A stretch of DNA of 64,000 bases, taken from Bacteroidota bacterium. Lineage in GTDB: Bacteria; Bacteroidota; Ignavibacteria; UBA10030; UBA6906. This document shows, one piece after another, positions 1 through 53,652 of the stretch. The notes under the pieces are model-generated. The model saw only the letters and a list, made by a program, of their open reading frames with translations. It did not search any database and was not told the origin of the DNA. How positions within the stretch are numbered: position 1 is the stretch's first letter; the number at the start of each line of letters is the position of its first letter. The stretch covers positions 9,584 through 73,583 of the forward strand of contig JADLEA010000197.1 in NCBI GenBank assembly GCA_020846365.1, given 5' to 3'. A program made the position numbers and the translations under genes.

Positions 1-2809
1 CAACCAGGATGGCGATCCAGCCGACATGCCGGATGTGGTGAACATGAGCCTGGGCTCGGATCTGGGCACACCGGACGATGCCATCTCGACCGCCGTTGAC
101 AACGCGGTGAAACTGGGAATCACCTTCTGTGTGTCGGCGGGCAATAGCGGAGGATACACCCCCGTGCAGGGGAAGGAGAACAACTACTACTACACGGGGA
201 TGGAGACGATCGGGAGTCCGGCTTCGGCGCAGTTGGCAATCACCGTGGGTGCCGTGGATTCAGTCGATGACAGCCCGCGATTCTCATCGAAGGGACCCGT
301 GCGTGGAACATTCGGCATCAAGCCGGACGTCATGGCTCCAGGCGTCGAGGTGCTGTCGCTCGCACCCGGAGGCGGGCTTGCGTCGAAATCCGGTACATCG
401 ATGGCTTCACCCATGGTCGCGGGAATCGCCGCCCTGCTGAAGAGCAGAAATAACGCCCTCACCCCGGCCGAAATAAAATCAGCAATCACAAACTCATCCC
501 TGGATCTCGGGATCTCTGCGATGCGGCAGGGAGCGGGCCGCGTAGATGCAGTCCGCGCCCTGGGACTCGCATCCAGTGCCACGCCCCAGGAACTCAGCTT
601 CGGGCTCGACGATCCGGCCCTGGGCGTGTGGGCAGAAGTTGACACGATCGTGATTGCCAACCATGACGACGTCGCCCAGACCTATGCGGTGGACTTTTCT
701 CCCGGGGCTGCTGGGATCACCCTTGCCGCTTCGCCCCAGACGTTTTCGATCGTGCCCGGTGGAACTCAACAAGTCCTCGTCACCCTCACAGTCAACAACG
801 CGGCCATCCCCATTGTGGACGAGGACATCCTCATCTTTGACGGGGCCATGCGCGTTAGCGGTGCGTCGGATACTCTCCGTATCCCGTGGGCCTTCGTCCG
901 GACCTCCCGGATGATGCTTTCGTTCAGCCACCCCGAGCCCATACTTCTCGGGGCCAGCAACAGCTACTACATCACTTCGCAGTACGCACGCTTTGCGTCC
1001 AAAGTGCGATGGATCGATACGCGGCATTTGGAAGTTGTGGGAGCATTCAACGGCACGTACGACTTCGCCGTGTATTTCCCCAGCACAGGTGCTCTGGTGA
1101 CCCGGGAACAGCTGGTCTTTCAAGGGAACGATGCGCTGCACTTCGATGCGAGCGAAGCAATCCACACGCTGCAGATAGCAGGAAGCGATGAACACGGTGT
1201 TCCGTTCCCGGCATCGGCCAAGACCAGGCGGACCCTTCGCGTGGAGTTGCCCGTGACCTTTCCCCTGTATGTGGCGCTTCCTGCCGGGGAATCATCGCTC
1301 TCGGTGTCGCCGACGTCGGCGCGATTCGGCTTTCACCCCACCGTGAGTTTTGTGGATATGGAGAGCGAACGGCGGGCAGTGCTCCCCCAGTACGCAGCGT
1401 TCAAAGGTATTTCAGGCAACATGACCGTGACGCCGGCCTCAGCGACCTATCTGACACAGGTCCTGCGATTCAGAGTCCCTCCGGGAACTCCTCAGCTCAA
1501 GCTCTATTCCGAGATCATCGCGGCATTGACGGACAAGGGGCAGGAGTACTACAACACCATTCAGGTAAGTGCCGATACGCTGGACGTGCAGCATGACGAA
1601 ATCTCGATCAGGCTCGCCCTGATGCAACCCGCAAACCTGGCGTACTTCGCATCCATTGCGTTCCACACGATTGCCCGTGACCTTGGCAGTCTTTACCTGG
1701 ACTCGTCAACCCGCTATTTCTCCGCGGTGGGAGACAGCATCATGGTCGGTCTCCCGTCGCAGCGGTCGCTGGTGTCGTACGCATTGCCGAGCGGGGACAC
1801 GTTGACATTCGGTGGCGCGCCGGTACACGTCGTCAACATCGGGTACAACAATTCCTTCGGCACGTCCGTCCATTTCGATTCCAGGTTCCGTGGGAGCATG
1901 TCCGAGGATCGTTTTGCCGACTACGATTCCGCAACCTATGCGATCTATGACGCTGGCGGACAGAAGCTGGCAGGCGGACCGCTCAACGTGTCGCGGTCGC
2001 CGCTGCCGGTGGCGCCGGCCCGCTATGTCATAGACGTGAACTCGGACAACTACTTTATTGCAGGAGGCAAAGGGCGCGTGCGCATCACAAACTGGGTAGA
2101 CCTGACGAAGCAGGTCGCCGACGCACCCTACATCACTGCCTACCGCGTCCTTGATAGAAGGGGGAAAGCGACAGACCAGGTGGCGCAGGGGGACTCTGCC
2201 ACGCTGCTTTTCTCAACGCGCATTCCTGCATTCCCCGGTGAACTGCCGGTGCATGACTCCACGCAGGCCTTCTACCGTGAACACGGGACTTCGAACTGGA
2301 CCCCGCTGCCGCTTCAGCTTCTGCATAGCGACACGGAGGGGATTGGCAGCGTGTTCGCGTCTGACCTGTCAGGTGCGACCCTGCACGATTCCACGGGGAT
2401 CGAGCTTCGTGTCCGGGTGGTGGACATAACGGGCAACGCGACCGACATGATCGTGTCACCCGCGTTTGCCGTGGGTTACTGGATCAACGACGGGCCTCTG
2501 GATGTGGGGGATGGGGATCGGCTCCCTGCGCAGTATGCGCTTCTGCAGAACTATCCGAATCCATTCAATCCTGCCACGAACATTTCTTATGCGCTGCCGG
2601 TTTCCAGTGTCGTGACGGTGGAAATATTCGACATGCTCGGCCGGAGGGTCGTCACCCTGCAGGAGGGAACAAAAGCCGCGGGAGTCCACACGCTGCGGTT
2701 CGATGGATCACCGTATGCCAGCGGCGTGTATTTCTACCGGCTGCACGCCCGGTCGGTTGCGGGTGGGGGAGAATTCATGCAGGCGAAAAAGCTCGTGCTG
2801 TTGCGTTAA
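1..2809 (+). CDS. Subtilisin-like (S8) serine peptidase, 5'-truncated at the window edge, with a C-terminal T9SS sorting domain
   Basis: The frame reads through from the first bases (NQDGDPADMPDVVNMSLGS) and shows the subtilisin Asn motif VVNMSLGS and the Ser motif GTSMASPMVAGIAALL. The C-terminus (NYPNPFNPATNISYALP...VEIFDMLGRRV...GVYFYRL...KKLVLLR) is a typical Por secretion tail. Confidence 0.85.
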   Translation, partial: NQDGDPADMPDVVNMSLGSDLGTPDDAISTAVDNAVKLGITFCVSAGNSGGYTPVQGKENNYYYTGMETIGSPASAQLAITVGAVDSVDDSPRFSSKGPVRGTFGIKPDVMAPGVEVLSLAPGGGLASKSGTSMASPMVAGIAALLKSRNNALTPAEIKSAITNSSLDLGISAMRQGAGRVDAVRALGLASSATPQELSFGLDDPALGVWAEVDTIVIANHDDVAQTYAVDFSPGAAGITLAASPQTFSIVPGGTQQVLVTLTVNNAAIPIVDEDILIFDGAMRVSGASDTLRIPWAFVRTSRMMLSFSHPEPILLGASNSYYITSQYARFASKVRWIDTRHLEVVGAFNGTYDFAVYFPSTGALVTREQLVFQGNDALHFDASEAIHTLQIAGSDEHGVPFPASAKTRRTLRVELPVTFPLYVALPAGESSLSVSPTSARFGFHPTVSFVDMESERRAVLPQYAAFKGISGNMTVTPASATYLTQVLRFRVPPGTPQLKLYSEIIAALTDKGQEYYNTIQVSADTLDVQHDEISIRLALMQPANLAYFASIAFHTIARDLGSLYLDSSTRYFSAVGDSIMVGLPSQRSLVSYALPSGDTLTFGGAPVHVVNIGYNNSFGTSVHFDSRFRGSMSEDRFADYDSATYAIYDAGGQKLAGGPLNVSRSPLPVAPARYVIDVNSDNYFIAGGKGRVRITNWVDLTKQVADAPYITAYRVLDRRGKATDQVAQGDSATLLFSTRIPAFPGELPVHDSTQAFYREHGTSNWTPLPLQLLHSDTEGIGSVFASDLSGATLHDSTGIELRVRVVDITGNATDMIVSPAFAVGYWINDGPLDVGDGDRLPAQYALLQNYPNPFNPATNISYALPVSSVVTVEIFDMLGRRVVTLQEGTKAAGVHTLRFDGSPYASGVYFYRLHARSVAGGGEFMQAKKLVLLR

Positions 2810-2953
2810 CATTGCGTAGCTGTCTCCGCACCTGATGTCCTGTCTGCCGGCGCATGAGCCGTCCACGTGCGCCGGCGGGCCCGGGGACTTCGAGTTGACT
2901 TTCTGCAAGGCCGGCAGTACTTTGGATGAGGATCACTTCCGAAGAGCCCTGCC

Positions 2954-4453
2954 ATGTGGACCTCAACTTCCCGCCTCCGTTTCTTCGTCTTCTGTCTTCT
3001 CTTTCTCGACTCGGCTGCGATTGCCGCGAGTGACCGCGTTCCGGCGGTAGCCGGACAATTCTACCCTGCATCACCGGTCGAATTGCAGGCGACGCTCAAA
3101 GACCTGTTCTCGCGGGCCGAACGAAGGACCGAGAACGCCTCCGTTCGGGCTCTGATACTGCCTCACGCGGGATATGTCTTCTCGGGGCAGGTGGCTGCAT
3201 CAGGCGTCAACCAGATTGATCCCCAACAATCTATAAGGGCAATCTTCCTGATCGGTGTCAGTCACAATGCCGCCTACGATGGGGCAGCTGTGTACACGGA
3301 AGGCGGCTTTCTCACGCCACTCGGCCGGGTTCCCGTGGATGTGGATCTGGGGAAGTCTCTGTTGGGCCACAGCGGACTTTTCCTCCAGCATTCCCGGGCG
3401 CATGCGGTGGAACACTCCCTCGAAGTTCAATTGCCGTTTCTGCAATACCATCTGAAGAAGCCCTTCAAGATCGTGCCGATTCTCCTCGGCACATCGGACC
3501 CCGCAATCTGCGAACGGATTGCGGAAGCGCTGCTTCCGCATTTTTCAAAAGAGAACCTCTTCATCGTCAGTACAGACCTGTCGCACTATCCATCCTACAA
3601 GGATGCAGTGACCACTGACAAGAGGACGATCGATGCCGTGTTGTCCGGTTCTCCGCAAGAGCTTCTGAAGACCGTGCGCCAGAACGAACGGTCGGGAGGT
3701 GGCCAGTTACTGACTTCCATGTGCGGCCTGGGCGGAGTCATGGTGTTGCAGGAGATCCTCGGGGCGGCGGGGAACGGGAAGTTCACGGTGGTGCAATATC
3801 GAAACTCCGGGGATGTTCCGGCAGGGGAGAAGGACCGCGTCGTGGGCTACGCAGCGATCAAAGTCACGCAGGCCGGACGCGAGACCTTCCTCCTCCGGTC
3901 TGAAGACAAGCGTCGCCTCCTGGAGATTGCGCGATCCTCGTTGGCGAAACACCTGGCGACAGGCCACGTCCCTGCTCTGGTTGAGGCCCAGCTCTCGGAA
4001 GCGCTCCGCACGCCGTGTGGCGCGTTCGTCACACTGAAAAAACGAGGCGAGCTTCGCGGTTGCATCGGGAACTTCTCGGGCACGGAGATGCTGGCCCGCA
4101 CAGTGCAGCGGATGGCACTTGCAGCAGCGACGGAAGATCCCCGTTTCGCCCCCGTCTCGGCCGGTGAACTCGCACACCTGGATATCGAAATCTCGGTCCT
4201 CTCGCCGATGCAGAAAGTGACTTCGCCGAAGGAGATTGCATTGGGAAGGCATGGCGTCTACATCCAGAAGGGGAACCGGGCCGGTACGTTCCTGCCTCAA
4301 GTAGCAAAAGAGACGGGATGGTCTCTGGAGGAATTCCTCGGTCATTGCGCACAGGACAAAGCGGGGATTGGGTGGGAGGGGTGGAGGGATGCTGACGTGT
4401 TCGTGTATGAGGCCATCGTGTTTGGCGAAAGTGACGATGGTTCCACGCGCTGA
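2954..4453 (+). CDS. AmmeMemoRadiSam system fusion protein: MEMO1-like (protein B) N-terminal half fused to an AMMECR1 (protein A) C-terminal half, behind an apparent N-terminal signal peptide
   Basis: The AGQFYP motif near the N-terminus and the LILPHAGYVFSG motif are Memo-family hallmarks. The C-terminal half carries AMMECR1 signatures (CGAFVTLKKRGELRGCIGNF). The N-terminus MWTSTSRLRFFVFCLLFLDSAAIAAS looks like a Sec signal peptide. Confidence 0.8.
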   Translation: MWTSTSRLRFFVFCLLFLDSAAIAASDRVPAVAGQFYPASPVELQATLKDLFSRAERRTENASVRALILPHAGYVFSGQVAASGVNQIDPQQSIRAIFLIGVSHNAAYDGAAVYTEGGFLTPLGRVPVDVDLGKSLLGHSGLFLQHSRAHAVEHSLEVQLPFLQYHLKKPFKIVPILLGTSDPAICERIAEALLPHFSKENLFIVSTDLSHYPSYKDAVTTDKRTIDAVLSGSPQELLKTVRQNERSGGGQLLTSMCGLGGVMVLQEILGAAGNGKFTVVQYRNSGDVPAGEKDRVVGYAAIKVTQAGRETFLLRSEDKRRLLEIARSSLAKHLATGHVPALVEAQLSEALRTPCGAFVTLKKRGELRGCIGNFSGTEMLARTVQRMALAAATEDPRFAPVSAGELAHLDIEISVLSPMQKVTSPKEIALGRHGVYIQKGNRAGTFLPQVAKETGWSLEEFLGHCAQDKAGIGWEGWRDADVFVYEAIVFGESDDGSTR

Positions 4454-6572
4454 AGGGTGGCGCAATGCCACCGTGCTAGCAGGCGCCATCACGGCCGGGA
4501 CACAGGTGGTGCTGCTGCGCGAAGTGCTCTCTGCCTTCCTGGGCAACGAGCTGATCATCGGGATCCTCTTCTTTGACTGGCTGCTCCTTACGGGAGTCGG
4601 CGCTGTCCTTGCGCATCGTTGGGTTCCGCGCCTTCCCTCGTCTGCGATGCTACCTGTTGCCCTGGGGTCGCTTCTCATCCTGCCCCCGCTGACCTTCGCC
4701 GGCTTCCGGATGATCCCTCTCCTGGTCAGTCCCCCCGGCAGCATGCTGGACATCTGGATGATCCTGGTTGGCGCCGGTCTCGCGTTGGGTCCGGTATGTC
4801 TGGTTTCCGGAGGGGTATTCTCTCTTCTGGTGCGGGCTGCGGCCTCCAGCGGTACGCCGGGCCCTGTGGGAAAAGTGTACGCCTGGGAAGCTGTGGGGAG
4901 CCTGATCGGCGGAGTGCTCTTCAGCGTACTCCTGTTTGATGTGATCGCGTCGCATGATGTGCTCGTTGCGCTCTGTGCGGCAGGTGGGATCGTCGGGGCG
5001 GTACATGCATACAGGTCTGGCTCCCGCCGTTCCGTCGCCGTCCTTGCCCTGTGTGTGCTTCTCCTCATCGTTGCCCGGCATGCAATGGATGCGGATGCAT
5101 GGACCCACGCACGGCGGTATCCTGGTCAGGACGTTCTGTCCCATCAGGAAACTCCCTTTGGGGTTCTGACTGCCACGCGATCCGGTGGGCAGACGTCGGT
5201 CTACACCAACAATGTTCCCTTGTATGTCAGCGGCGACATCGCAAAAGCAGAACAGATCGTTCATGTTGCCGTGATCCAGCGCCCCCATGCGCCGAGGGTG
5301 CTCGTGGCGGGAGGCAATCCGGCGGAGCTTGTGCCAGAAGTATTGAAGTATGCCGGCAGCACGCTCATCTGCATAGAGGAGAATCCATGGTTGAGGCGGC
5401 TCGAACAAAAGTATTTGCCGGTCCCCCAGGACTCCCGCGTATCCTTCATTACCGGCGATCTCAGGCGATTTCTCGTCGCCTCGGCAGGTGCATTTGACGT
5501 CATCATCGTTGCCGCCCCGGAGCCATCCACGCTGCAATCGAACCGGCTCTTCACTCGAGAGGCGCTGCAGCTCATGCGCAGATCCCTCACACCCTCGGGG
5601 GTGCTCTGTCTCTCGCTTCCCTCATCCGCGGAGTACGTGGGAGATGATGCAAGGAAGGTCCGCGCGATTTTGAAAAACACCCTTGCCGAATCGTTTGCCC
5701 ATACGCTGATCCTTCCCGTCGGAGACGATGTGTTTCTGGCGTCGGATTCCACGCTCAGGCCTGACGTGGGGGCGGGCATTGCGGAAGAAGGCCTGCACAC
5801 GGCATACGTGAATGCGCACTATCTGCAAGACGACCTGATCAGCTCCAGGGCGCAGGCGCTGTCTGCTTCGCTGGACTCCGGAGCCGGAGTGAACACGGAT
5901 GCGCGTCCGATCCTGATGCTTGCGCAGATCGGACACTGGCTTCGTCTCTTCTCCGTCGATATGTGGATTCCGGCGCTCGTCGGGCTCGCCGCCGTGGTCC
6001 TCCTGTTCATCCACAGCGACCGGATGTCGCTGGGCGTCGCGGCCGCGGGTTGTGGAGGCATCGTCCTGGAATTGATGATTCTTATGATTGTGCAGGTGGG
6101 GTTTGGCAACGTGTACCAGATGAGCGGTGGGCTCATCGGACTCTACATGGCCGGGATGGGAGGCGGGGCAATTCTGGCTGGACGGATCACGCATGCCTCA
6201 CGGTGGTATGCCGGAATGCAGAGCGGACTTGTGTTGGCACTGCTTCTGGCTGCTGCGCTCTCGGCCGGCGTGTTTGCGGGTGCTTCCGGCGCCGTGGCAG
6301 GATTGGTCATCTGTTTGATTGCCGGATCGTTCAGCGCCGGTGCCGTGTTTTCGCTGACCTCCCGGATACGATCTGAGAATCCCGTGGCCACGGGCTCGCG
6401 ACTGTATGGCGTGGACTTGATGGGTTCCGCCTTGGGGGCGTTGCTTGTCGGACCGGTGTTGCTGCCCTTGTGGGGTGTGTATGTCGTTGCATCTTCAACT
6501 GCTGCCGTCGTTGCAGCGGGTGCGATCGTGTCGCTCTCATCGCCGCTCTGGAGGACATATGAACAAACGTGA
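4437..6572 (+). CDS. Polytopic membrane protein with a central spermidine-synthase-like (class I methyltransferase fold) domain flanked by multi-TM regions
   Basis: It has about 7 predicted N-terminal and about 6 C-terminal hydrophobic helices. The central region (VLVAGGNPAELVPEVL...ICIEENP...ITGDLRRFL...FDVIIVAAPEPST...LFTREAL) resembles the SpeE fold, but the GGGDGG motif is degenerate. The start was chosen at ATG 4437 and alternatives exist in 4368-4437. The gene overlaps the upstream stop by 17 nt and the downstream start by 14 nt. Confidence 0.6.
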   Translation: MVPRAEGWRNATVLAGAITAGTQVVLLREVLSAFLGNELIIGILFFDWLLLTGVGAVLAHRWVPRLPSSAMLPVALGSLLILPPLTFAGFRMIPLLVSPPGSMLDIWMILVGAGLALGPVCLVSGGVFSLLVRAAASSGTPGPVGKVYAWEAVGSLIGGVLFSVLLFDVIASHDVLVALCAAGGIVGAVHAYRSGSRRSVAVLALCVLLLIVARHAMDADAWTHARRYPGQDVLSHQETPFGVLTATRSGGQTSVYTNNVPLYVSGDIAKAEQIVHVAVIQRPHAPRVLVAGGNPAELVPEVLKYAGSTLICIEENPWLRRLEQKYLPVPQDSRVSFITGDLRRFLVASAGAFDVIIVAAPEPSTLQSNRLFTREALQLMRRSLTPSGVLCLSLPSSAEYVGDDARKVRAILKNTLAESFAHTLILPVGDDVFLASDSTLRPDVGAGIAEEGLHTAYVNAHYLQDDLISSRAQALSASLDSGAGVNTDARPILMLAQIGHWLRLFSVDMWIPALVGLAAVVLLFIHSDRMSLGVAAAGCGGIVLELMILMIVQVGFGNVYQMSGGLIGLYMAGMGGGAILAGRITHASRWYAGMQSGLVLALLLAAALSAGVFAGASGAVAGLVICLIAGSFSAGAVFSLTSRIRSENPVATGSRLYGVDLMGSALGALLVGPVLLPLWGVYVVASSTAAVVAAGAIVSLSSPLWRTYEQT

Positions 6573-7704
6573 GTTTCTCAGGTGCTGTGCGCTCGGCACG
6601 GCGGCTGCCTGTACGTATTTCCCACTTCCTTCACTGCGATGGGCAGAGCGTGGCGGGTACAGCGAGCCGGAGCCGGTTGAGGAGCTCTGGAAATGGAGCA
6701 AGGAGGCTCTCTTCGTAGAGCCGGCGGGTGATGCCATACATTGTCTGAAGTGCCCGAACGGATGCGTCATCCCTGTCGGGGAGACCGGGCGCTGCAGGAA
6801 CCGCGTGAATGTCCGCGGAAAGCTCTACTCCAATGCCTACGGAAATCCCTGCGCGGTGCATATAGATCCGATCGAAAAGAAACCCCTCCTCCACTTCCTT
6901 CCGGGAACGCGTGCCTTTTCCATTGCCACGGCAGGCTGTAATCTCGCGTGCCTGAACTGTCAGAACTGGGAGATCTCGCAGGTCAGCCCCACGGAGACAG
7001 AGAACCAGGATCTCATGCCACGGGCGGTCGTGGATGCCTGCCTCCGGGGGCACTGTGCATCGATCGCATACACGTACTCCGAGCCAACGACTTTTTACGA
7101 ATACGCATTCGACACCGCAGAGATCGCCCATCAAGAAGGGATCCGGAATGTCTGGAAATCCAACGGGTACATAGAGGAGGTCCCGCTGCGGAAACTCTGT
7201 CGCGTCATCGACGCGGCCAATATCGACTTGAAGAGTTTTGATGAAGACGTGTACGCCCGGCTCAATGCCGGCAGTCTTGCTCCCGTCTTGCGTACACTCC
7301 GTGTGTTTCGCGAGATGGGCGTGTGGCTTGAGATCACAAACCTTGTCATTCCCGGTTGGACCGACGACCTGGACATGATCCGGCGGATGTGCAACTGGCT
7401 GTGCAATAACGGACTTTCAGATTCCCCCCTCCACCTGAGCCGCTTTGTCCCCCTGTACAAACTCAACCGCCTGGCACCTACCCCCGTCAAACGACTCGAA
7501 GAAGCCCATGCCGTGGCAGTGGCCGAAGGGATGCACTATGTGTATGTCGGCAACGTTCCAGCCCACCCGACCGAACACACCTACTGCCACAAGTGCAGGA
7601 AACGTGTCATTGAGCGGCGGGGATACGCGATCCTTTCCAATGACCTCGAAAACGGGCGTTGCCGGCATTGCGGAACCTCGATTCCGGGGGTCTGGCATAC
7701 ATAA
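6559..7704 (+). CDS. AmmeMemoRadiSam system radical SAM enzyme
   Basis: CNLACLNCQNWEIS is a CX3CX2C radical SAM cluster motif in the family-typical context (DPIEKKPLLHFLPGTRAFSIATAGCNLAC). A C-terminal Cys cluster is present (HKCRKR...CRHCG). GGAGGA lies 3 nt upstream of ATG 6559. The N-terminal KREFLRCCALGTAAAC is Tat-like. Confidence 0.85.
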   Translation: MNKREFLRCCALGTAAACTYFPLPSLRWAERGGYSEPEPVEELWKWSKEALFVEPAGDAIHCLKCPNGCVIPVGETGRCRNRVNVRGKLYSNAYGNPCAVHIDPIEKKPLLHFLPGTRAFSIATAGCNLACLNCQNWEISQVSPTETENQDLMPRAVVDACLRGHCASIAYTYSEPTTFYEYAFDTAEIAHQEGIRNVWKSNGYIEEVPLRKLCRVIDAANIDLKSFDEDVYARLNAGSLAPVLRTLRVFREMGVWLEITNLVIPGWTDDLDMIRRMCNWLCNNGLSDSPLHLSRFVPLYKLNRLAPTPVKRLEEAHAVAVAEGMHYVYVGNVPAHPTEHTYCHKCRKRVIERRGYAILSNDLENGRCRHCGTSIPGVWHT

Positions 7705-7919: not shown

Positions 7920-9497
7920 ATGTCCTTTACCCGAACGCTTTTTTGCCTGACAGGATTGCTTCTCGGCTATGCCTTCAGCAGTCCGGCACAGATTCTCCAG
8001 CCTTTCAATCCGGACAGTGCTCTTCTCGACATCGTAGGTCAACTCGAAGGGACGCCGCTTACCCTGGATCAGGCGCGGCAGTATTCCGCACAAACCTCTC
8101 CCGCCGTGGCGGCAGCGGAAGCGGCCCTCGCGGCGGCGCGCGGTGCCGTAAGGAGGGAAGGAGGGACATTCGACCCGCAGCTTTCGCTCTCATGGCGCTA
8201 CACAGATCAGAAGCAGCCGACAGCGTCGTTCTTTGCGGGAGCATCAGTTCTCCACACACTCCAGGCCGACGGAGGTGCCGGCCTGCAGTGGACTCTCCCA
8301 TCCGGCACCATGCTTGGGGCATCCATCGACGCCTCACGCCTGAATACGAATTCCTCTTTCGCGTTTCTTACACCGCAGTACACCACTTCAGGGCAACTCA
8401 CGCTGCGCCAACCCCTGCTCCGCGGATTCACCGTATCCGCGCGAAAGAACCTTGTCAATGCGGAGCAACAGTTTGCGGCAGCCGAAGCACGGTTAGCCCA
8501 GGAACGCCTGGCTCTCGCCACCCTTGTGGATCTCGTCTACTGGGATCTCTACGCAGGAGAACGCGATTATGCCGTGCAGAAACTCACGCGCGATCGTGCG
8601 GCAGCGTTCTTGCGGGATACCGAGCTGAGGGCTCAGACCGGCCTCATCGGGCCGAGTCAGGTCGCAAACGCCCGCACGTTCCTCGCTGAACAGGAGATCC
8701 TTCTGCTGGACCGGGAGGAACAGCTCGACCGTCTTTCGGATCAGCTTGCGATCGTTGTCGGCGTGAGGCCGGCGGCAGGCCAGAAGCGTTTCAAATCGGC
8801 CGATCAGCCGCCGGATGCGTTTACCGTGGGAGAAGTTGACACGCTGGTCCGGGAGGCGTTAACCCGGAATCTGGACCTGCGTGCGGCGAAGGCGGAGTTG
8901 GATGCGCGCCGCACCATGGCCAGTGCCGCGTCCTGGGAAGCTCTCCCCAGCGTGGACCTCGTCGGATCCATCGGCGGCAGCGGACTTTCCGGAAGCCCGC
9001 ATGATGTGGTCTTCGGCAGCGACACGCTGCGAACGACGGTGAGCGGGGGGCTAAGCGATGCGCTGCGGCAGGCGGTGAATCGCGATTTCCCGAACTGGCA
9101 TGTCGGATTGGAAGTCCTCGTCCCCATCGGCTTCCGGACCGGACTGGGTGAGTCGGATCGCCTCGACGCGGAAGTTGCGATTGCCGAGCAGCGATATGTG
9201 CAGGCAGAACGGATCCTGGAAGCCGAGGTCCGGTCGAGTTGCCGCGAATTGATGCACGGCCAGCAACGGCTGAGTGCTGCGCGGGCCGGGGTCGCGGCGG
9301 CTCAGGAACAGGTGCGCATCGGCCTGATCGAATTTCAGAATGGACGCTCGACAGCTTTCGAACTCGTGCGTTTGGGTGCGGACTTTGCCGTTGCGCAACA
9401 ACGCTATTCACAGGCACTTGTCCGAAGCGCAAAAAGCGCGGCCACGCTGCGCCAATTGACCTCGGGCGCGTACGATCCGGCATTGTCACGGCAGTGA
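7920..9497 (+). CDS. TolC-like outer membrane efflux protein (outer membrane factor)
   Basis: It has a signal peptide (MSFTRTLFCLTGLLLGYAFSSPAQ) and an OEP-family two-repeat alpha/beta architecture. It is the first gene of an OMF-MFP-RND operon. Confidence 0.8.
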   Translation: MSFTRTLFCLTGLLLGYAFSSPAQILQPFNPDSALLDIVGQLEGTPLTLDQARQYSAQTSPAVAAAEAALAAARGAVRREGGTFDPQLSLSWRYTDQKQPTASFFAGASVLHTLQADGGAGLQWTLPSGTMLGASIDASRLNTNSSFAFLTPQYTTSGQLTLRQPLLRGFTVSARKNLVNAEQQFAAAEARLAQERLALATLVDLVYWDLYAGERDYAVQKLTRDRAAAFLRDTELRAQTGLIGPSQVANARTFLAEQEILLLDREEQLDRLSDQLAIVVGVRPAAGQKRFKSADQPPDAFTVGEVDTLVREALTRNLDLRAAKAELDARRTMASAASWEALPSVDLVGSIGGSGLSGSPHDVVFGSDTLRTTVSGGLSDALRQAVNRDFPNWHVGLEVLVPIGFRTGLGESDRLDAEVAIAEQRYVQAERILEAEVRSSCRELMHGQQRLSAARAGVAAAQEQVRIGLIEFQNGRSTAFELVRLGADFAVAQQRYSQALVRSAKSAATLRQLTSGAYDPALSRQ

Positions 9498-9631
9498 CCG
9501 GCCGGAGAACATCACCGGGAGTGGGATACGCCGGTAAGAAATCGCATCCCGACGCGCAATGCGCGACGCAGGGGTTGTCGAACAATACGCGTGGAAGACA
9601 CGCGCGCTAGAGAGAAGAGAGGAGTGCACGT

Positions 9632-10729
9632 ATGTTCAGTAAGAGAATGCCGCTCATAGGATTCGTTTCCGTTGTCGCCGCGGGAGCCGGACTGATGTTC
9701 CTGCAGGGATGCGGAGGATCCGCGGAAGGCCACGGGTTCTCCATGCCACCCATGCCCGTCGAAGTCAGTAACGTCGTCGTGGAAAAGGTGGAGGACAAGT
9801 TCGAGGCCATTGGAACGATCGAGGCGATCGAGGCGATTACCGTCGTGGGAGAAATCGACGCCGCGGTGAAGAGTCTACCCTTCAAAGAAGGGAGCACCAT
9901 TCCCAGGGGCGGCCTCATCGCCCAGCTCGACGATGCGCAGCTCGCCGCCGAGGTCGCGCGGGCTGAGGCACTCCGGGCGCAGAGCCAGGCCACCTACCAG
10001 CGGGTAAAGAGCGTGGTGGATCAGGGTGCCGGAGCGCCGCAGGATCTGGACGACGCGGCGGCCGCGCTGAAGGTGGCAGACGCAAACCTGGACGTAGCCC
10101 GGGCACGGTTTGACAAGACAAGAGTTGTGGCGCCGTTCCAGGGCATCATCGGTGCCCGCCGGGTCAGCGTCGGTACGTTTCTCAGAGCCGGACAGGTGAT
10201 TGCTGACCTCGCGGATATCAGTCAGATTCGCGTGATCTTTTCTGCACCGGAACGATTCCTCTCGAAACTCACCCCGGGAGCCACCGTCACAGTCTCCAGT
10301 CCGGCCTTCCCTGGCTCGCATCTCAACGGACGCATCACCGTGATTGAGCCGATCATAGACCCGACCACCCGGAGCGCACGCATCGTTGCACAAGTGCAGA
10401 ATGTCGGCCTCAAGTACCGTCCGGGCATGTCCGCGAACGTTTCCGCCGTCTTGGGCGCGCGCCCAGACGCCATGACGATCCCCAGCGAAGCGGTGTTCGG
10501 CAGCGGCGATCAGTCCTTTGCCTTCGTGGTGAACCCCGATAGCACCGTCGCCCGCGCCGTGCTGACACTGGGCACCAGGTCCGCGAAATCCGTGGAGGTG
10601 CTGGAAGGGCTCAAGCCCGGTATGGTCGTCGTGCGGGCAGGGCACCAGAAGCTGTTCGAGGGGGGGAAGGTCTTCCCGATGATGAGCGAGCCCCCTGCCG
10701 GGAACGGCACAACACCCAAGGGGAACTAG
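9632..10729 (+). CDS. Efflux RND transporter periplasmic adaptor subunit (membrane fusion protein)
   Basis: A lipoprotein-type signal is present (…LMFLQGCGGS). The protein has HlyD/AcrA-like coiled-coil and beta-barrel regions. A GGAG ribosome-binding site lies upstream. Confidence 0.85.
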   Translation: MFSKRMPLIGFVSVVAAGAGLMFLQGCGGSAEGHGFSMPPMPVEVSNVVVEKVEDKFEAIGTIEAIEAITVVGEIDAAVKSLPFKEGSTIPRGGLIAQLDDAQLAAEVARAEALRAQSQATYQRVKSVVDQGAGAPQDLDDAAAALKVADANLDVARARFDKTRVVAPFQGIIGARRVSVGTFLRAGQVIADLADISQIRVIFSAPERFLSKLTPGATVTVSSPAFPGSHLNGRITVIEPIIDPTTRSARIVAQVQNVGLKYRPGMSANVSAVLGARPDAMTIPSEAVFGSGDQSFAFVVNPDSTVARAVLTLGTRSAKSVEVLEGLKPGMVVVRAGHQKLFEGGKVFPMMSEPPAGNGTTPKGN

Positions 10730-10733
10730 CGTT

Positions 10734-13700
10734 ATGAAGATCAGCACCATATCCATTCAGCGTCCGGTCTTTGCGACCGTGATGAGCTTCGGCATCCTCC
10801 TGTTCGGCATCATCTCGTTCTCCCGGCTCCCCGTGCGCGAGTATCCGGACATCGATCCGCCTATTATCTCTGTCGTCACCTTCTACCGCGGCGCGAGTCC
10901 AAACGTCGTGGAAACCGAAATTACGAACGTCCTGGAAGAGCAGTTTGCGACCCTGGAGGGCGTCAAGACCATGACGTCGTCCAGTCGTGAACAGGGCTCT
11001 GTCATCACCATCGAGTTTGAATTGAACAGGGTGGTGGATGAGGCGGCGAATGACGTGCGGGACCGGGTATCACGTGTGCGCGGCAGCCTCCCGCGCGAGA
11101 TTGAAGATCCGGTGATCTCCAAGGTCGACGTCAATGCCCAGCCCATCGTCTGGCTCGCCCTTTCGAGTCCGGAACACAACGGACTGGAGCTCACCGACAT
11201 TGCGGACCGCGTGTTGAAGGAACGCATCCAGCGCCTCACCGGCGTGGGGTCGGTGTTTATCGGCGGTGAACGGCGCTATGCCATGCGCGTCTGGCTGGAT
11301 CCCTTGCGCATGGCTGCACACGGTCTCACGACGCAGGATATTGAGTCCTCGATCCGGAGAGAGAATGCCGAGATCCCCGGAGGACGCGTGGAAGGGGTGG
11401 AGCGCGAATTCTCCGTCCGCACGCGGGGAGAGCTGACCACACCCGAGGAATTCGGCGCGATCATCATCTCCCGGAACAACGATGATATTGTGCGGTTGCG
11501 CGATGTTGCGGAAGTGCAGGTGGGCGCCGAGGACGAACGGACCGTGGCACGGTACAACGGTCAGACTGCCGTAGGGCTCGGAATCGTGAAACAGTCCAAG
11601 GCAAGCACGGTGGATGTCGCGGCGGAAGTGCGGAAAGCGATGCCCGAGCTGGCGACGCTCCTTCCTGCGGGAATGCGATTGGATCTCGCATACGATTCCT
11701 CCACCTTCATCAACGAATCGATCAACGAAGTAGTCGAATCGCTCATCATCGCCGTCTGTCTCGTGGTCCTCGTCGTGCTGGCATTTCTGAAAAGCCTGCG
11801 GGCAACGGCTATTCCCACGGTGGCCATCCCCATCTCCATCATCGGCGCCCTGACGGTCGTGTACTTTGCAGGATTCACCATCAATATCCTGACGCTCCTG
11901 GCGCTCGTGCTCGCCATCGGTCTCGTCGTGGATGACGCGATTGTCGTGCTCGAGAATATCTACCGTCACATCGAACTGGGCAAGGACAGAAGGCGTGCGG
12001 CATTTGACGGGAGCAAGGAAATCGGCTTTGCCGTCGTCGCTACCACCATCACACTCGTCGCCGTCTTCGTGCCGCTGGCCTTCCTGACCGGCTCCGTGGG
12101 ACGGCTCTTCAACGAGTTCGGGATTACGCTTGCGGTCGCCGTTTTGATCTCGGGCTTCGTTGCGCTTACGCTCTCGCCGATGCTCTCGTCGAAGATCCTC
12201 CGACCGTTGCATGGCACGAGCGCACGATGGTCTTCGCGCTCCTTCGATGAGTTCTTTGACTGGCTCGACGACATCTACGGCAAGGCGTTGCGCTTCAGCC
12301 TGAGACACAAAGCTTTGATGATCACGGGAGGAGTTGCCACCATCGCGTTGAGCGTTTTGCTCTTCCGCATGCTCCCCAGCGAGCTCGTGCCTGTGGAAGA
12401 CCGCGGCGTGGGGTTCGGGATCGTCATCGCCCCTGAGGGCGCGACGCTCGAATACACCGACAAATACATGCGCCAGGTGGAACAGCGCGTGCTCGGACTG
12501 CCGGAACGCCGCGGGCTCTTTTCCGCCATTGGACTTTCGTTTGGCGGCCCGGGGCGCGTCACCAACGGCTTCATGTTTCTGGCGCTTAAACCGATGGGGG
12601 AGCGCGACAAGAGCCAGCAGCAAATCGTGCAGGAGCTGTTTCCTCAACTCCTGGCAATCCCCGGCGTCCTCGCTTTCGTCATCAATCCGCCCAGCCTGGG
12701 AGGATCCGTTAGCTTCAGTCCGGTGCAGTATGTGCTGCAGGCCGAGACATACGAAGAACTGAGCCAGGCAGTGGGAATCATGATGGGTGAGGCGTCCAAA
12801 CTCGGCTATCTGGTCAACATGGATACCGATCTGCGGCTGAACAAACCGCAGTTGGACCTGAACATTGACCGGGAACGTGCGGCCGGGCTCGGCGTTTCGG
12901 TGACCGATATCGGCACGACGCTCGAGACGATGCTGGGTGGCCGGGAAGTGACGACGTTCAAACGCGGGACCAAGCAGTATGACGTTGTCCTCCAGATGAC
13001 CCCATCCGCCCGCGCAACACCCGATGCCATCCGGGAGATCTATGTGCGCGGGACAGCCGGCCTCGTGCAGCTCGCAAATGTCGTCCACGTGGATGAAACG
13101 CTCGGCCCGAAAGAGCTCAATCACTACAACAGAGTGCGGTCGGCCACCCTGACGGCACAGCTTGTCCCGGGCGTGAGTCTGGGTCAGGCCCTCGACGATC
13201 TCGACCGCATCGTGGCGGAAAAGCTGCCCGCGGGCGTGAAGAGGGATTTTGCGGGCCAGTCACTCGAGTACAAGACCTCCAGCACAAGCCTGTACTTCAT
13301 GTTTGTGCTCGCCGTCATTTTCATCTACCTGGTGCTCGCGGCACAGTTCGAGAGCTTTGTCCACCCGTTCACCATCCTCCTGGCAGTCCCGTTGGCCGTG
13401 TTCGGAGCGTTGCTGACACTCTTCATCTTCGGACAGTCGCTCAACATCTACTCGCAGATCGGGCTGATCATGCTCGTGGGGCTCGTCACGAAGAACTCAA
13501 TCCTGATCGTAGAGTTCTCCAACCAGCTCCGAAGGCAGGGGAAGGCTCTCCTTGACGCCGTTATCGAGGCGGCGACAATCCGGCTGCGGCCGATCCTGAT
13601 GACCTCCTTCTCAACCACCTTCGGCGTTCTGCCCATTGCTCTGGGGCTCGGAGCGGGAGGTGAGTCGAGAACCCCCCTGGGCCTGGCCATCGTGGGCGGG

Positions 13701-53606: not shown

Positions 53607-53652
53607 TCAATGGGCAATGGATAATGGAAAACATGAAGGACAAACAGACCCT

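What the first reader, a model, noticed from the sequence alone, without database searches (positions are those of the whole stretch)
2954..6650. Apparent export signals on the Memo-AMMECR1 fusion and the radical SAM enzyme
The fusion protein begins MWTSTSRLRFFVFCLLFLDSAAIAAS, with a positive n-region, a hydrophobic core and an AxA site. This occupies about 30 residues before the AGQFYP motif that normally lies within ~10 residues of the Memo N-terminus. The radical SAM enzyme begins MNKREFLRCCALGTAAACTYF, resembling a (degenerate, KR) Tat motif followed by a hydrophobic stretch. Memo, AMMECR1 and radical SAM proteins are normally cytoplasmic. Export or membrane anchoring of this system next to a polytopic membrane partner would be unusual.
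Basis: inference. Interest (0 to 1): 0.55.

Follow-up and report, generated by a model that had tools for sequence, protein, structure and literature searches.

The report
Radical SAM operon carrying export signals
Both soluble enzymes of a Memo-AMMECR1 / radical-SAM operon carry conserved N-terminal export signals, and their membrane partner is predicted to face outwards, so this normally cytoplasmic system, including an iron-sulfur radical SAM enzyme, probably works outside the cytoplasmic membrane, which would be unprecedented for this enzyme class.

Summary
The Memo-AMMECR1 fusion (2954-4453) starts with a 26-residue Sec-type signal. No alternative start is possible. About 200 orthologs keep a signal at the same position, either signal-peptidase-I type or with a lipoprotein-style cysteine.

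The radical SAM enzyme (6559-7704) starts with N-K-R-E-F-L-R, a weakly hydrophobic stretch and a basic c-region. In its Ignavibacteriota/Bacteroidota clade the first basic residue is K in 95% and the second R in 99%. More distant orthologs carry true RRxFLK signals that pass the TIGR01409 cut-off.

The middle gene encodes a 14-helix, MFS-like membrane protein. Its spermidine-synthase-fold domain is predicted to face the periplasm.

Relatives fuse the radical SAM domain or the membrane protein to extracytosolic FMN-binding, NapH-like and DsbD-like electron-transfer modules.

Best reading: a periplasm-facing variant of the AmmeMemoRadiSam system (confidence 0.58).

Main caveats:
- K-R is a weak Tat motif.
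- No SAM supply is known in the periplasm.
- One subclade has a signal-less radical SAM enzyme.

I found no paper that discusses this.

The parts
2954..4453 (+). Gene for the Memo-AMMECR1 fusion protein (499 aa; AmmeMemoRadiSam proteins B + A)
   Evidence: TIGR04336 scores 254.6 bits (cut-off 26) on aa 28-303. TIGR04335 scores 166 bits (cut-off 99) on aa 321-490. Pfam Memo and AMMECR1 also match. A 98%-identical protein, P0121, is in public data.
2954..3031 (+). Sec-type signal peptide, aa 1-26 (n: MWTSTSRLR; h: FFVFCLLFL; c: DSAAIAAS). Probable cleavage after AIA or AAS, just before DRVPAVAGQFYP.
   Evidence: There is no alternative start. Orthologs keep an extension of the same length, either AxA-type or with a Cys at the h/c boundary. 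The signal region is 35% identical among close homologs, against 69-75% for the domains.
3035..3862 (+). Memo domain (aa 28-303)
3914..4423 (+). AMMECR1 domain (aa 321-490)
4437..6572 (+). Gene for a 711-aa polytopic membrane protein. Two homologous six-helix bundles (MFS-like) have helix 7, a SpeE-fold domain and helix 8 inserted between them. It overlaps the fusion gene by 17 nt.
   Evidence: P0391 is 100% identical over 711 aa, which supports ATG 4437. The AF2 model has pLDDT 88.3 and pTM 0.88, with 7 helices before the domain and 6-7 after it. An internal repeat and conserved polar residues are seen. The gene is conserved next to the radical SAM gene in 108 of 160 loci.
5130..5870 (+). Spermidine-synthase-fold (class I SAM-binding Rossmann) domain, aa 232-478, predicted to be periplasmic
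   Evidence: Pfam PF01564 matches. Foldseek finds SpeE structures at E 1e-10 with TM-score 0.71 on the target. G293, E314, D341 and D354 are conserved in more than 90% of 89 sequences. Positive-inside counts put it outside. Helix parity in the AF2 model agrees.
6550..6554 (+). GGAGG Shine-Dalgarno sequence, 4 nt before the radical SAM start codon
6559..7704 (+). Gene for the AmmeMemoRadiSam radical SAM enzyme (381 aa). It overlaps the membrane-protein gene by 14 nt.
   Evidence: TIGR04337 scores 344.4 bits (cut-off 220) on aa 58-380. The closest solved relative is PFL-activating enzyme.
6559..6645 (+). Tat-like signal or anchor, aa 1-29: MN-KREFLR-CCALGTAAACTYF-PLPSLRWA
   Evidence: Motif statistics: K 95% and R 99% at the two basic positions, F 98%, Cys at +7 in 92%. 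The h-region is weakly hydrophobic (1.7-1.8 against 2.8-3.1 for Sec-type) and 84% have a basic c-region residue. AF2 shows a lone helix at 3-19 followed by a disordered stretch at 24-39. An in-silico K3R change scores 16.3 bits on TIGR01409, whose cut-off is 16.7.
6562..6582 (+). N-K-R-E-F-L-R, the K-R variant of the S/T-R-R-x-F-L-K twin-arginine consensus
6937..6960 (+). CxxxCxxC radical SAM cluster motif (C127, C131, C134)
   Evidence: These columns are invariant in alignment A1.

Best explanation
The three overlapping genes encode a periplasm-facing version of the AmmeMemoRadiSam system.

Shown from sequence:
- The Memo-AMMECR1 fusion begins with a classical cleavable Sec signal.
- The radical SAM enzyme begins with a peptide that has every feature of a twin-arginine (Tat) signal except that the first arginine is lysine.
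- The middle gene is a 14-helix, MFS-like membrane protein with a spermidine-synthase-fold, SAM-type nucleotide-binding domain inserted between helices 7 and 8.

Inferred:
- Memo-AMMECR1 is exported unfolded by Sec and folds in the periplasm.
- The radical SAM enzyme receives its Fe-S clusters in the cytoplasm. It is then moved folded across the membrane by Tat. It is either released or, as with Rieske proteins, kept tethered by the uncleaved, unusually conserved helix.
- The SpeE-fold domain of the membrane protein sits on the same, outer side.

Speculative:
- The membrane protein supplies or presents the adenosyl cofactor or the substrate.
- Electrons reach the enzyme through transmembrane conduits of the kind that relatives have fused to these proteins.
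- The enzymes then act on each other or on an envelope substrate.

The chemistry of the system is unknown.
For: Identity and operon:
- All three system models score above their curated cut-offs. The genes overlap by 17 and 14 nt.

Fusion signal:
- No alternative start exists.
- About 110 of 120 homologs have n/h/c extensions of 27-34 residues. About half have a Cys at the h/c boundary followed by a polar linker. The rest are AxA-type.
- The same holds in 96 loci.
- The region evolves faster than the domains (35% against 69-75% identity) but keeps its character.

Radical SAM signal:
- The motif [ST]-K-R-x-F-[LIM]-[KR] is near-invariant.
- h-region hydrophobicity is 1.73 (KR) and 1.82 (RR), against 2.8-3.1 for Sec-type signals. 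A basic residue follows the h-core in 84%.
- RR-bearing orthologs score 18.5-22.7 bits on TIGR01409, whose cut-off is 16.7.
- 45 of 80 distant metagenomic loci, and 22 of 150 clusters at 50% identity, carry RRxFL signals.
- Changing K to R in silico brings two relatives to 18.8 and 19.3 bits, and the window peptide to 16.3 bits.
- AF2 gives an isolated N-terminal helix, a disordered linker and then the domain.

Host:
- Two GH10-like proteins in the same window have canonical Tat signals (21.9 and 18.9 bits), so a Tat pathway is likely present.
- A T9SS-type sorting domain (read from the sequence) and what reads as a TolC/RND operon point to a diderm.

Co-occurrence:
- In every locus with a Tat-like radical SAM enzyme where the N-terminal region of the Memo gene is present, that N-terminus is hydrophobic and signal-like.

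Membrane partner:
- It is present in 108 of 160 loci.
- Positive-inside counts over 62 and 89 sequences, together with the AF2 helix count, put the SpeE-fold domain outside.
- Fusions P0456 and P0457 place one helix between its C-terminus and an FMN_bind domain, which fits a C-terminus-in topology.

Independent fusions that place the radical SAM domain outside:
- P0252: RR-helix, FMN_bind, radical SAM domain, with no helix in between.
- P0247: signal, beta-propeller, radical SAM domain.
- P0254: signal, CBM11, radical SAM domain.
- P0251 and P0257: FMN_bind, six NapH-like helices, radical SAM domain.

Literature:
- FMN_bind and NapH-like modules are established extracytosolic electron-transfer parts (PMC8238504).

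Further partner:
- In RR-type loci, a DUF362 protein with its own RR signal sits just upstream of the radical SAM gene in 27 of 80 loci.
Against: - The window's peptide has K-R, not R-R. It gets no Tat HMM hit even at E = 10. Lysine substitutions are reported to be poorly tolerated by Tat (PMC5539426). The K-R peptides are not more hydrophobic in compensation.
- The best c-region site in the window has R at position -3 (LRWA|E), a poor signal-peptidase site.
- The h-region is unusually conserved for a cleaved signal: Cys at +7 in 92%, Gly at +10, +13 and +17.
- Radical SAM chemistry needs SAM and a low-potential electron donor. Neither is known in the periplasm (my own knowledge).
- A subclade with a truly short, signal-less radical SAM enzyme (MxKTVQCEL) still has a hydrophobic N-terminus on its Memo-AMMECR1. 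The two enzymes therefore need not share a compartment.
- Six loci and the fusion P0253 put the Fe-S enzyme behind a Sec-like, non-RR signal. This is hard to reconcile with cluster insertion, unless Tat accepts such peptides, as has been shown for OmpA and DsbA signals (PMC5539426).
- No tatA or tatC lies in the window.
- No dedicated predictor was run and no experiment exists.
Confidence: 0.58

Rival explanations
1. Only Memo-AMMECR1 is exported. The radical SAM enzyme stays in the cytoplasm. Its K-R peptide is a disabled or vestigial Tat signal that docks the enzyme at the membrane (on TatBC, on the membrane partner or on a chaperone). There it modifies the unfolded Memo-AMMECR1 precursor before Sec export, in the way anaerobic sulfatase-maturating enzymes act on sulfatases.
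For: - K replaces the first R in 95% of the clade, and the HMM does not recognise the peptide.
- Lysine substitutions impair Tat targeting.
- The h-region is more conserved than expected for a cleaved signal.
- A subclade pairs a signal-less radical SAM enzyme with a signal-bearing Memo-AMMECR1.
- SAM and reductants are cytoplasmic (my own knowledge).
Against: - All other Tat features are kept under selection: F at +2, L/I/M at +3, K/R at +4, low hydrophobicity and a basic c-region.
- Sister clades have fully canonical RR signals.
- Domain fusions place the radical SAM domain next to extracytosolic FMN_bind, CBM and propeller domains with no helix between them.
- The partner's SpeE-fold domain is predicted to lie outside.
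Confidence: 0.25
2. Nothing is exported. Both N-terminal helices are tethers that hold the cytoplasmic enzymes on the inner face of the membrane, around the polytopic protein, whose SpeE-fold domain would then also be cytoplasmic.
For: - Cofactor logic: SAM, dcSAM, Fe-S assembly and flavodoxin are all cytoplasmic (my own knowledge).
- SpeE-type domains normally use cytoplasmic dcSAM.
- AF2 merges the last two predicted helices of the membrane protein (649-700), so helix counting is not fully secure.
Against: - The positive charges sit N-terminal to both hydrophobic stretches. This gives an N-in, C-out orientation.
- About half of the fusion orthologs have a lipoprotein-style Cys at the end of the h-region, and others have AxA sites.
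- The radical SAM h-region is too weakly hydrophobic for a stable Sec-inserted anchor: the best 19-residue window averages 1.2.
- Positive-inside counts from both halves of the membrane protein put the domain outside, and this does not depend on helices 13 and 14.
Confidence: 0.1
3. The extensions are artefacts of mis-called start codons, or chance resemblances to signals.
For: No RBS is evident before ATG 2954.
Against: - No in-frame ATG/GTG/TTG exists between either start and its conserved domain.
- A GGAGG precedes ATG 6559.
- The extensions are conserved in length and character in hundreds of orthologs from several phyla.
Confidence: 0.02

Closest known systems
AmmeMemoRadiSam system (NCBIfam TIGR04335 protein A / AMMECR1, TIGR04336 protein B / Memo, TIGR04337 radical SAM enzyme)
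   Same: All three models are matched above their curated cut-offs, and the genes are clustered in one operon. The chemistry is equally unknown.
   Different: - The canonical proteins start at the conserved domains. The model boundaries show this, and 87 of 150 representative radical SAM clusters have short N-termini.
- Here A and B are fused behind a Sec signal.
- The radical SAM enzyme carries a Tat-like signal.
- A 14-helix SpeE-fold membrane protein is a conserved extra component.
Tat-exported Fe-S proteins, in particular Rieske proteins with an uncleaved Tat signal-anchor (Pfam PF10399)
   Same: An Fe-S protein sits behind an S/T-[RK]-R-x-F-L-K motif with a weakly hydrophobic helix. RR-bearing orthologs give weak PF10399 hits (E 0.02). 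A conserved helix suggests an anchor that is retained. Natural K-R Tat signals are known, for example chloroplast Rieske and Salmonella TtrB (my own knowledge).
   Different: The passenger is a radical SAM enzyme, which needs SAM as a co-substrate. As far as I know and could find, no radical SAM enzyme has been described as a Tat substrate.
Pyruvate formate-lyase activating enzyme and other glycyl-radical activases (PDB 3c8f, 8fo0)
   Same: This is the closest solved relative of the radical SAM core (E 5e-10, aa 115-282). TIGR02493 also matches weakly.
   Different: PFL-AE is cytoplasmic and has no N-terminal extension. Here there are extra Cys motifs at aa 62-79 and 343-371. Scores lie far below the activase cut-offs.
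Anaerobic sulfatase-maturating enzymes (radical SAM enzymes acting on exported proteins)
   Same: A radical SAM enzyme is genetically paired with a partner that carries a Sec signal. This is the model for the rival in which modification precedes export.
   Different: anSMEs carry no signal peptide themselves and belong to the SPASM group (my own knowledge). No sequence relationship was seen here.
Membrane-bound polyamine aminopropyltransferase (PRK03612) and fused MFS/spermidine synthase (NF037959)
   Same: These are the best family hits of the middle gene. The SpeE fold is confirmed by Foldseek. Sources name homologs 'spermidine synthase' or 'fused MFS/spermidine synthase'.
   Different: - Scores are far below the cut-offs: 90.8 against 472, and 27 against 40.
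- The GGGDG box reads AGGNPA.
- The catalytic DxxD region reads AAPEPS.
- The domain is inserted between two six-helix bundles and is predicted to be periplasmic.
Extracytosolic flavinylated electron-transfer modules (FMN_bind PF04205 with NapH-like PF12801, and DsbD-like), Meheust et al. 2021, PMC8238504
   Same: Relatives fuse exactly these modules to the radical SAM domain (P0248, P0251, P0252, P0257, P0245, P0249) and to the membrane protein (P0456, P0457).
   Different: The window's own three genes carry no such module. The paper's main text mentions neither Memo nor AMMECR1, and the library search counted no occurrence of 'radical SAM' in it.

Membership tests
AmmeMemoRadiSam system | Protein B (Memo) matches TIGR04336 above its cut-off | tested here: met
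   254.6 bits against a cut-off of 26, on aa 28-303
AmmeMemoRadiSam system | Protein A (AMMECR1) matches TIGR04335 above its cut-off | tested here: met
   166 bits against a cut-off of 99, on aa 321-490
AmmeMemoRadiSam system | The radical SAM enzyme matches TIGR04337 above its cut-off and has a CxxxCxxC motif | tested here: met
   344.4 bits against a cut-off of 220. C127, C131 and C134 are invariant.
AmmeMemoRadiSam system | The three components are encoded together | tested here: met
   One operon with overlapping genes. The arrangement is conserved in related loci.
Twin-arginine (Tat) signal peptide (TIGR01409 / S-R-R-x-F-L-K) | Consecutive arginines in the n-region; HMM score at or above 16.7 bits | tested here: not met
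   The window has K-R and gets no hit at E up to 10. An in-silico K3R change gives 16.3 bits. RR-bearing orthologs score 18.5-22.7 bits.
Twin-arginine (Tat) signal peptide (TIGR01409 / S-R-R-x-F-L-K) | F at +2, L/I at +3 and K/R at +4 after the basic pair | tested here: met
   The window reads K-R-E-F-L-R. In the clade, F is 98%, L/I/M 88% and R/K 77%.
Twin-arginine (Tat) signal peptide (TIGR01409 / S-R-R-x-F-L-K) | An h-region less hydrophobic than in Sec signals, and a basic residue in the c-region | tested here: met
   Best 12-residue window 1.73-1.82, against 2.8-3.1 for Sec-type. A basic residue follows the h-core in 84%. The window has R27 and R31.
Twin-arginine (Tat) signal peptide (TIGR01409 / S-R-R-x-F-L-K) | TatABC-dependent export of the folded passenger | not testable with these tools
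   This needs reporter or fractionation experiments. Host Tat is inferred only from two canonical Tat signals in the window.
Sec signal peptide, signal-peptidase-I type | A positive n-region, a hydrophobic h-region of 7-15 residues, and small residues at -3 and -1 | tested here: met
   R7 and R9; FFVFCLLFL; A-I-A|A or A-A-S|D. The SignalP score itself was not obtainable.
Sec signal peptide, signal-peptidase-I type | The signal is conserved in orthologs at the same position | tested here: met
   About 110 of 120 homologs, and 96 loci
Spermidine synthase / polyamine aminopropyltransferase (SpeE) | Equivalog-level HMM score and the GGGDG / DxxD catalytic boxes | tested here: not met
   TIGR00417 scores 45.6 against a cut-off of 249.55, and PRK03612 scores 90.8 against 472. 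The boxes read AGGNPA and AAPEPS. The fold itself is SpeE-like.
Fused MFS/spermidine synthase (NF037959) | HMM score at or above 40 bits | tested here: not met
   27 bits. A 6+6 internal repeat is consistent with an MFS-like core. A structural comparison of the membrane part could not be run.

The most novel reading that the evidence does not exclude
This operon and its many relatives are the first radical SAM system that works outside the cytoplasm.
- The Fe-S enzyme is exported by Tat. It acts in the periplasm together with Sec-exported Memo-AMMECR1.
- An MFS-like membrane protein exports or presents the adenosyl cofactor through its outward-facing SpeE-fold domain.
- Electrons arrive through transmembrane FMN_bind / NapH-like / DsbD-like conduits. 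These are fused to the enzymes in some lineages.

If so, SAM-dependent radical chemistry, and therefore a SAM pool, exists in the bacterial periplasm. The enigmatic Memo and AMMECR1 proteins would then act on an envelope substrate.
Probability: 0.4. Interest if true: 0.9.

Novelty: new variant of a known kind. Interest (0 to 1): 0.72.

Why it matters
- Radical SAM enzymes are taken to be strictly cytoplasmic, because they need SAM, a low-potential reductant and oxygen-sensitive clusters. A large and phylogenetically wide branch that carries Tat signals would overturn that assumption. Here that branch makes up 45 of 80 distant loci, and 24 of 150 representative clusters carry the short-extension form of the signal. 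Its partners carry Sec or lipoprotein signals and its membrane partner faces outwards.
- It would imply that adenosyl cofactor and electrons are delivered across the membrane.
- It gives a concrete handle on Memo and AMMECR1. Both are conserved from bacteria to humans and linked to human disease, yet their molecular function is still unknown. An envelope location and a fixed membrane partner narrow the search for a substrate.
- Cultured carriers exist (Mangrovibacterium marinum DSM 28823), so the question can be tested directly.

Tried and rejected
- SignalP, TatP and DeepTMHMM are not available here. I replaced them with HMMs (TIGR01409, PF10399), hydrophobicity and charge statistics, ortholog surveys and AF2.
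- The window's K-R peptide and two K-R orthologs gave no TIGR01409 or Pfam Tat hit.
- The one paper most likely to have treated these gene contexts is not held, so prior description there cannot be excluded (Burroughs et al. 2019, J Biol Chem 294:10211, PMC6664185).
- Literature searches found nothing relevant. I searched for AmmeMemoRadiSam, for AMMECR1 with Memo and radical, for periplasmic, exported or Tat-dependent radical SAM, for AMMECR1 with Tat, signal peptide or spermidine synthase, and for flavinylation with radical SAM.
- A 24-sequence alignment of RR-type enzymes was too divergent for the metagenome scan, so I used a 6-sequence one.
- I searched the window and 161 loci for tatA and tatC, using E. 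coli sequences written from memory. Only L158 has them, so the window gives no direct evidence for Tat genes.
- Clustering of neighbouring genes found no further component conserved with the window-type loci. Most extra 'families' were antisense shadow ORFs. DUF362 is limited to RR-type loci and is absent from the window.
- I rejected the idea that a lipobox explains the conserved Cys in the radical SAM h-region. The Cys lies at the start of the h-region (+7), not at its end.
- I considered compensation of K-R by higher hydrophobicity. It is not seen (1.73 against 1.82).

Full report
**1. What is in the window**

Three co-directional, overlapping genes occupy 2954-7704.
- Gene 1 (2954-4453, 499 aa) is a fusion of Memo (aa 28-303) and AMMECR1 (aa 321-490).
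  - It matches AmmeMemoRadiSam protein B (TIGR04336) at 254.6 bits, cut-off 26.
  - It matches protein A (TIGR04335) at 166 bits, cut-off 99.
- Gene 3 (6559-7704, 381 aa) matches the system's radical SAM enzyme (TIGR04337) at 344.4 bits, cut-off 220.
- Gene 2 (4437-6572, 711 aa) is a polytopic membrane protein with a central spermidine-synthase-like domain (PF01564). It lies far below every SpeE equivalog cut-off.
- The genes overlap by 17 and 14 nt.

The host is probably a diderm of the Ignavibacteriota/Bacteroidota group. An upstream peptidase has what reads as a T9SS-type C-terminal sorting domain. A gene set that reads as a TolC/RND efflux operon lies downstream (neither was scanned against a family library). 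The closest loci come from MAGs of those phyla.

**2.

Both N-termini read as the finder wrote them.

For the fusion:
- ATG 2954 is the only ATG/GTG/TTG between the upstream stop (2927) and the AGQFYP motif.
- The Memo model starts at residue 28. Human MEMO1 structures align from residue 31 to chain residue 7-8.

For the radical SAM enzyme:
- ATG 6559 follows a GGAGG by 4 nt. No start codon lies between it and the conserved core.
- The family model aligns from residue 58 to profile position 10. About 48 residues are therefore extra.

**3. The fusion's extension is a Sec signal**

- The window peptide has an n-region with R7 and R9, the h-region FFVFCLLFL and the c-region DSAAIAAS. The mature protein then starts at DRVPAVAGQFYP.
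- About 110 of the 120 closest homologs (51-98% identical) have an extension of 27-34 residues with this architecture.
- The nearest relatives have AxA-type sites (ASA|ED).
- About half of the others end the h-region in a cysteine followed by a polar Q/S/N-rich linker (for example LLFVSVC|NSQNRSEDRQPAVAGQFYP). This is a lipoprotein-style signal.
- Interchange of the two signal types at one position is what exported proteins do.
- The signal region is 35% identical among close homologs, against 69-75% for the two domains.

**4. The radical SAM extension is Tat-like, with lysine in place of the first arginine**

Statistics for the window protein and its 120 closest homologs, 107 of which were anchored on the motif:

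| Position | Residues |
|---|---|
| -1 | T/S 73% |
| first basic | K 95%, R 4% |
| second basic | R 99% |
| +2 after the pair | F 98% |
| +3 | L/I/M 88% |
| +4 | R/K 77% |

- Of the 14 sequences the scan did not anchor, six show the motif by eye. The other eight start inside or after the hydrophobic stretch and look like truncated gene calls.
- The hydrophobic stretch is weak. Its best 12-residue Kyte-Doolittle window is 1.7-1.8, against 2.8 for the fusion's signals and 3.1 for the few Sec-like radical SAM N-termini.
- 84% have a basic residue just after the hydrophobic stretch. This is a Sec-avoidance feature.
- The motif region is 65% identical, the h-region 27%, the linker 16% and the core 71%.
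- AF2 predicts a lone helix (aa 3-19), a disordered stretch (aa 24-39, pLDDT below 50) and then the domain.

HMM results:
- The window's peptide gets no TIGR01409 hit.
- The single in-silico change K3R gives 16.3 bits, against a cut-off of 16.7.
- The same change in two relatives gives 18.8 and 19.3 bits.
- Naturally RR-bearing orthologs score 18.5-22.7 bits.
- Two GH10-like proteins encoded in the same window have canonical Tat signals (21.9 and 18.9 bits). The host therefore very probably has a Tat pathway that reads RR.

**5. The feature is family-wide**

A search of 1.84 billion representative proteins returned 150 clusters:

| N-terminus of the radical SAM protein | Clusters |
|---|---|
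| Short, starting at MKEALFY... (16 of these also carry C-terminal fusions) | 87 |
| Extension of 40-55 residues with RRxFL | 22 |
| Extension with K-R | 2 |
| Hydrophobic extension without the motif | 3 |
| Long N-terminal fusion behind a helix or signal | 9 |

- In 80 genome loci of the window's clade, 72 radical SAM genes are K-R type and 2 are RR type.
- In 80 more distant metagenomic loci, 45 are RR, 8 K-R, 6 Sec-like and 15 short.
- Wherever the N-terminal region of a Memo-AMMECR1 gene is present next to a Tat-like radical SAM gene, it has a hydrophobic, signal-like N-terminus. The few cases my classifier scored otherwise are signal-like on inspection, for example L095 and L115.

**6. 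The membrane partner belongs to the system and probably faces out**

- It clusters with the radical SAM gene in 108 of 160 loci. The gene order and orientation vary.
- No other family is comparably conserved. The exception is DUF362, a protein with its own RR signal. It sits just upstream of the radical SAM gene in 27 of the 80 RR-type loci and is absent from the window.
- AF2 (pLDDT 88.3, pTM 0.88) gives seven helices, a domain at aa 232-478, and then helices at 510-525, 529-556, 560-581, 588-613, 617-644 and 649-700.
- Conserved motifs show that helices 1-6 and 9-14 are homologous repeats. Q23 corresponds to Q553, and YxxExxG at 148-154 corresponds to YxxDxxG at 657-663. This is an MFS-like 6+6 core, with helix 7, the domain and helix 8 inserted.
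- K+R counts over 62 and 89 sequences:
  - The arginine-rich loops at 58-73, 130-152, 194-199 and 575-594 carry 1.9-3.0 K+R per sequence. In the AF2 model the loop itself is aa 582-587. They all lie on one side.
  - The loops at 32-36, 172-174 and 557-559 carry 0-0.1 K+R per sequence and lie on the other side.
  - With this arrangement the domain is outside from both directions.
- Fusions P0456 and P0457 add one helix and then an FMN_bind domain after the C-terminus. This fits a cytoplasmic C-terminus.
- The domain has the full SpeE fold (Foldseek E 1e-10, TM-score 0.71 on the target).
- It keeps the motif-I glycine (G293), the ribose-binding acid (E314), D341 and D354 in more than 90% of sequences. 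The dcSAM-specific GGGDG box and the catalytic DxxD box are changed.

**7. Independent support from domain fusions**

Among representative relatives:
- P0252: RR-helix, FMN_bind, radical SAM domain, with no helix between them.
- P0247: signal, beta-propeller, radical SAM domain.
- P0254: signal, CBM11, radical SAM domain.
- P0251 and P0257: FMN_bind, six NapH-like helices, radical SAM domain. P0248 has the same domains, but only five helices were detected.
- P0245 and P0249: DsbD_2, radical SAM domain.

FMN_bind with NapH-like or DsbD-like membrane parts are established modules for carrying electrons to extracytosolic enzymes (PMC8238504). These fusions suggest how an exported radical SAM enzyme could be reduced. 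They also place its domain on the outer side in several lineages.

**8. Mechanism, with its status**

- Shown: the sequences, their conservation, the gene linkage, the fold of the membrane protein's domain, and canonical Tat signals in sister clades and in the host.
- Inferred:
  - Sec export and cleavage of Memo-AMMECR1.
  - Tat-type export of the cluster-loaded radical SAM enzyme. Its helix may be retained as an anchor. I take the conservation of Cys at +7 (92%) and of Gly at +10, +13 and +17 as a hint for this.
  - An outward-facing SpeE-fold domain.
- Speculative: cofactor or substrate delivery by the membrane protein, and the nature of the reaction.

**9. What argues against**

- K-R is a weak Tat motif. 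Lysine substitutions are poorly tolerated (PMC5539426), and the K-R peptides are not more hydrophobic in compensation.
- The window's best cleavage site has R at -3.
- SAM and low-potential donors are not known in the periplasm (my own knowledge).
- A subclade has truly short radical SAM enzymes (MxKTVQCEL) next to Memo-AMMECR1 proteins with hydrophobic N-termini. This fits a model in which modification precedes export.
- Six loci and the fusion P0253 put the Fe-S enzyme behind Sec-like signals. This is puzzling unless Tat accepts such peptides, as it does for OmpA and DsbA signals (PMC5539426).
- No tat genes are in the window.

**10. Comparison and novelty**

- The system is a member of the computationally defined AmmeMemoRadiSam family. 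All defining features tested were met.
- It is a distinct variant:
  - A and B are fused.
  - Both soluble enzymes carry export signals.
  - A fixed membrane partner is added.
- The radical SAM signal fails the strict Tat membership test (RR, HMM cut-off) while meeting every other Tat feature. I therefore file it as Tat-like, not as a proven Tat signal.
- Seven full-text searches found no paper that links AMMECR1, Memo or this radical SAM family to signal peptides, Tat or the periplasm.
- The one paper that may have touched on these contexts could not be read (Burroughs et al. 2019).

**11. Verdict**

- Confidence that the system is targeted to the outer face of the cytoplasmic membrane is 0.58. 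It is higher for the fusion alone (about 0.85, my estimate) than for the radical SAM enzyme (about 0.55, my estimate).
- Interest is 0.72. An extracytoplasmic radical SAM system would surprise specialists, and cultured carriers make it directly testable.

Noticed in passing
window 26-2809 (+): A subtilase-like peptidase ORF runs off the 5' end of the window. Read by eye, it ends in a T9SS-type C-terminal sorting domain (LLQNYPNPFNPATNISY...). This points to an FCB-group diderm host. It was not scanned against a family library.
   Followed up: no
window 7920-13871 (+): Directly downstream lie three ORFs that read as a TolC-like outer-membrane protein (7920-9497), an RND adaptor (9632-10729) and an RND pump (10734-13871). 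They were identified by eye only. They are not next to the triad in the related locus L001, so they are probably unrelated.
   Followed up: partly
window 53650-55332 (+) and 56957-58606 (+): Two GH10-like glycoside hydrolase ORFs have N-termini (TRRRFLTSAAFAGLGAAVG and TRRTFLQSGATVAAAAVG) that pass the TIGR01409 Tat-signal cut-off, at 21.9 and 18.9 bits. Tat-type signals on glycoside hydrolases are of some interest in themselves.
   Followed up: partly
window 4437-6572 (+), aa 8-193 against aa 529-700: The membrane protein contains an internal repeat of two six-helix bundles. Strictly conserved polar residues lie in the helices (Q23, R28, E29, N37, E38, Y148, E151; Q553, Y560, Y657, D660). This looks like a transporter-type binding path.
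   Followed up: partly
L083, L085, L088, L093 and 23 further loci, just upstream of the radical SAM gene: A DUF362 (PF04015) protein of about 330 aa, usually with its own RRxFLK signal, is a fourth conserved component of the RR-type systems. It is absent from the window and almost absent from the K-R clade.
   Followed up: partly
P0245, P0248, P0249, P0251, P0252, P0257 (radical SAM relatives); P0456, P0457 (membrane-protein relatives): FMN_bind, NapH-like Fer4_5 and DsbD_2 modules are fused to the radical SAM domain or to the SpeE-fold membrane protein. This links the family to extracytosolic flavin-based electron transfer.
   Followed up: partly
P0253; loci L101, L113, L124, L129, L141, L159: Some radical SAM orthologs sit behind strongly hydrophobic, non-RR, Sec-like or lipobox-like signals, for example MFKEKLFLIAIIIFLIDGVC|FSQEKEALY. 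P0253 is a triple fusion: signal, Memo, AMMECR1, radical SAM domain. An Fe-S enzyme behind a Sec-type signal is unexplained.
   Followed up: partly
L111, L114, L128, L133, L142, L149 (also L084, L147): In one subclade the radical SAM enzyme starts at MxKTVQCEL, shorter even than the canonical form. The adjacent Memo-AMMECR1 still has an N-terminal hydrophobic helix with a very short linker. The two enzymes may lie on opposite sides of the membrane there.
   Followed up: partly
L158, about 2086-3132: tatA and tatC lie immediately upstream of a short-type radical SAM gene. This is the only one of 161 loci that has Tat genes nearby.
   Followed up: no
P0247 and P0254: Here the radical SAM domain is fused behind a signal to a Reg_prop/PorZ-like beta-propeller or to a CBM11 carbohydrate-binding module. 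This hints at an envelope or polysaccharide-related substrate in some lineages.
   Followed up: no
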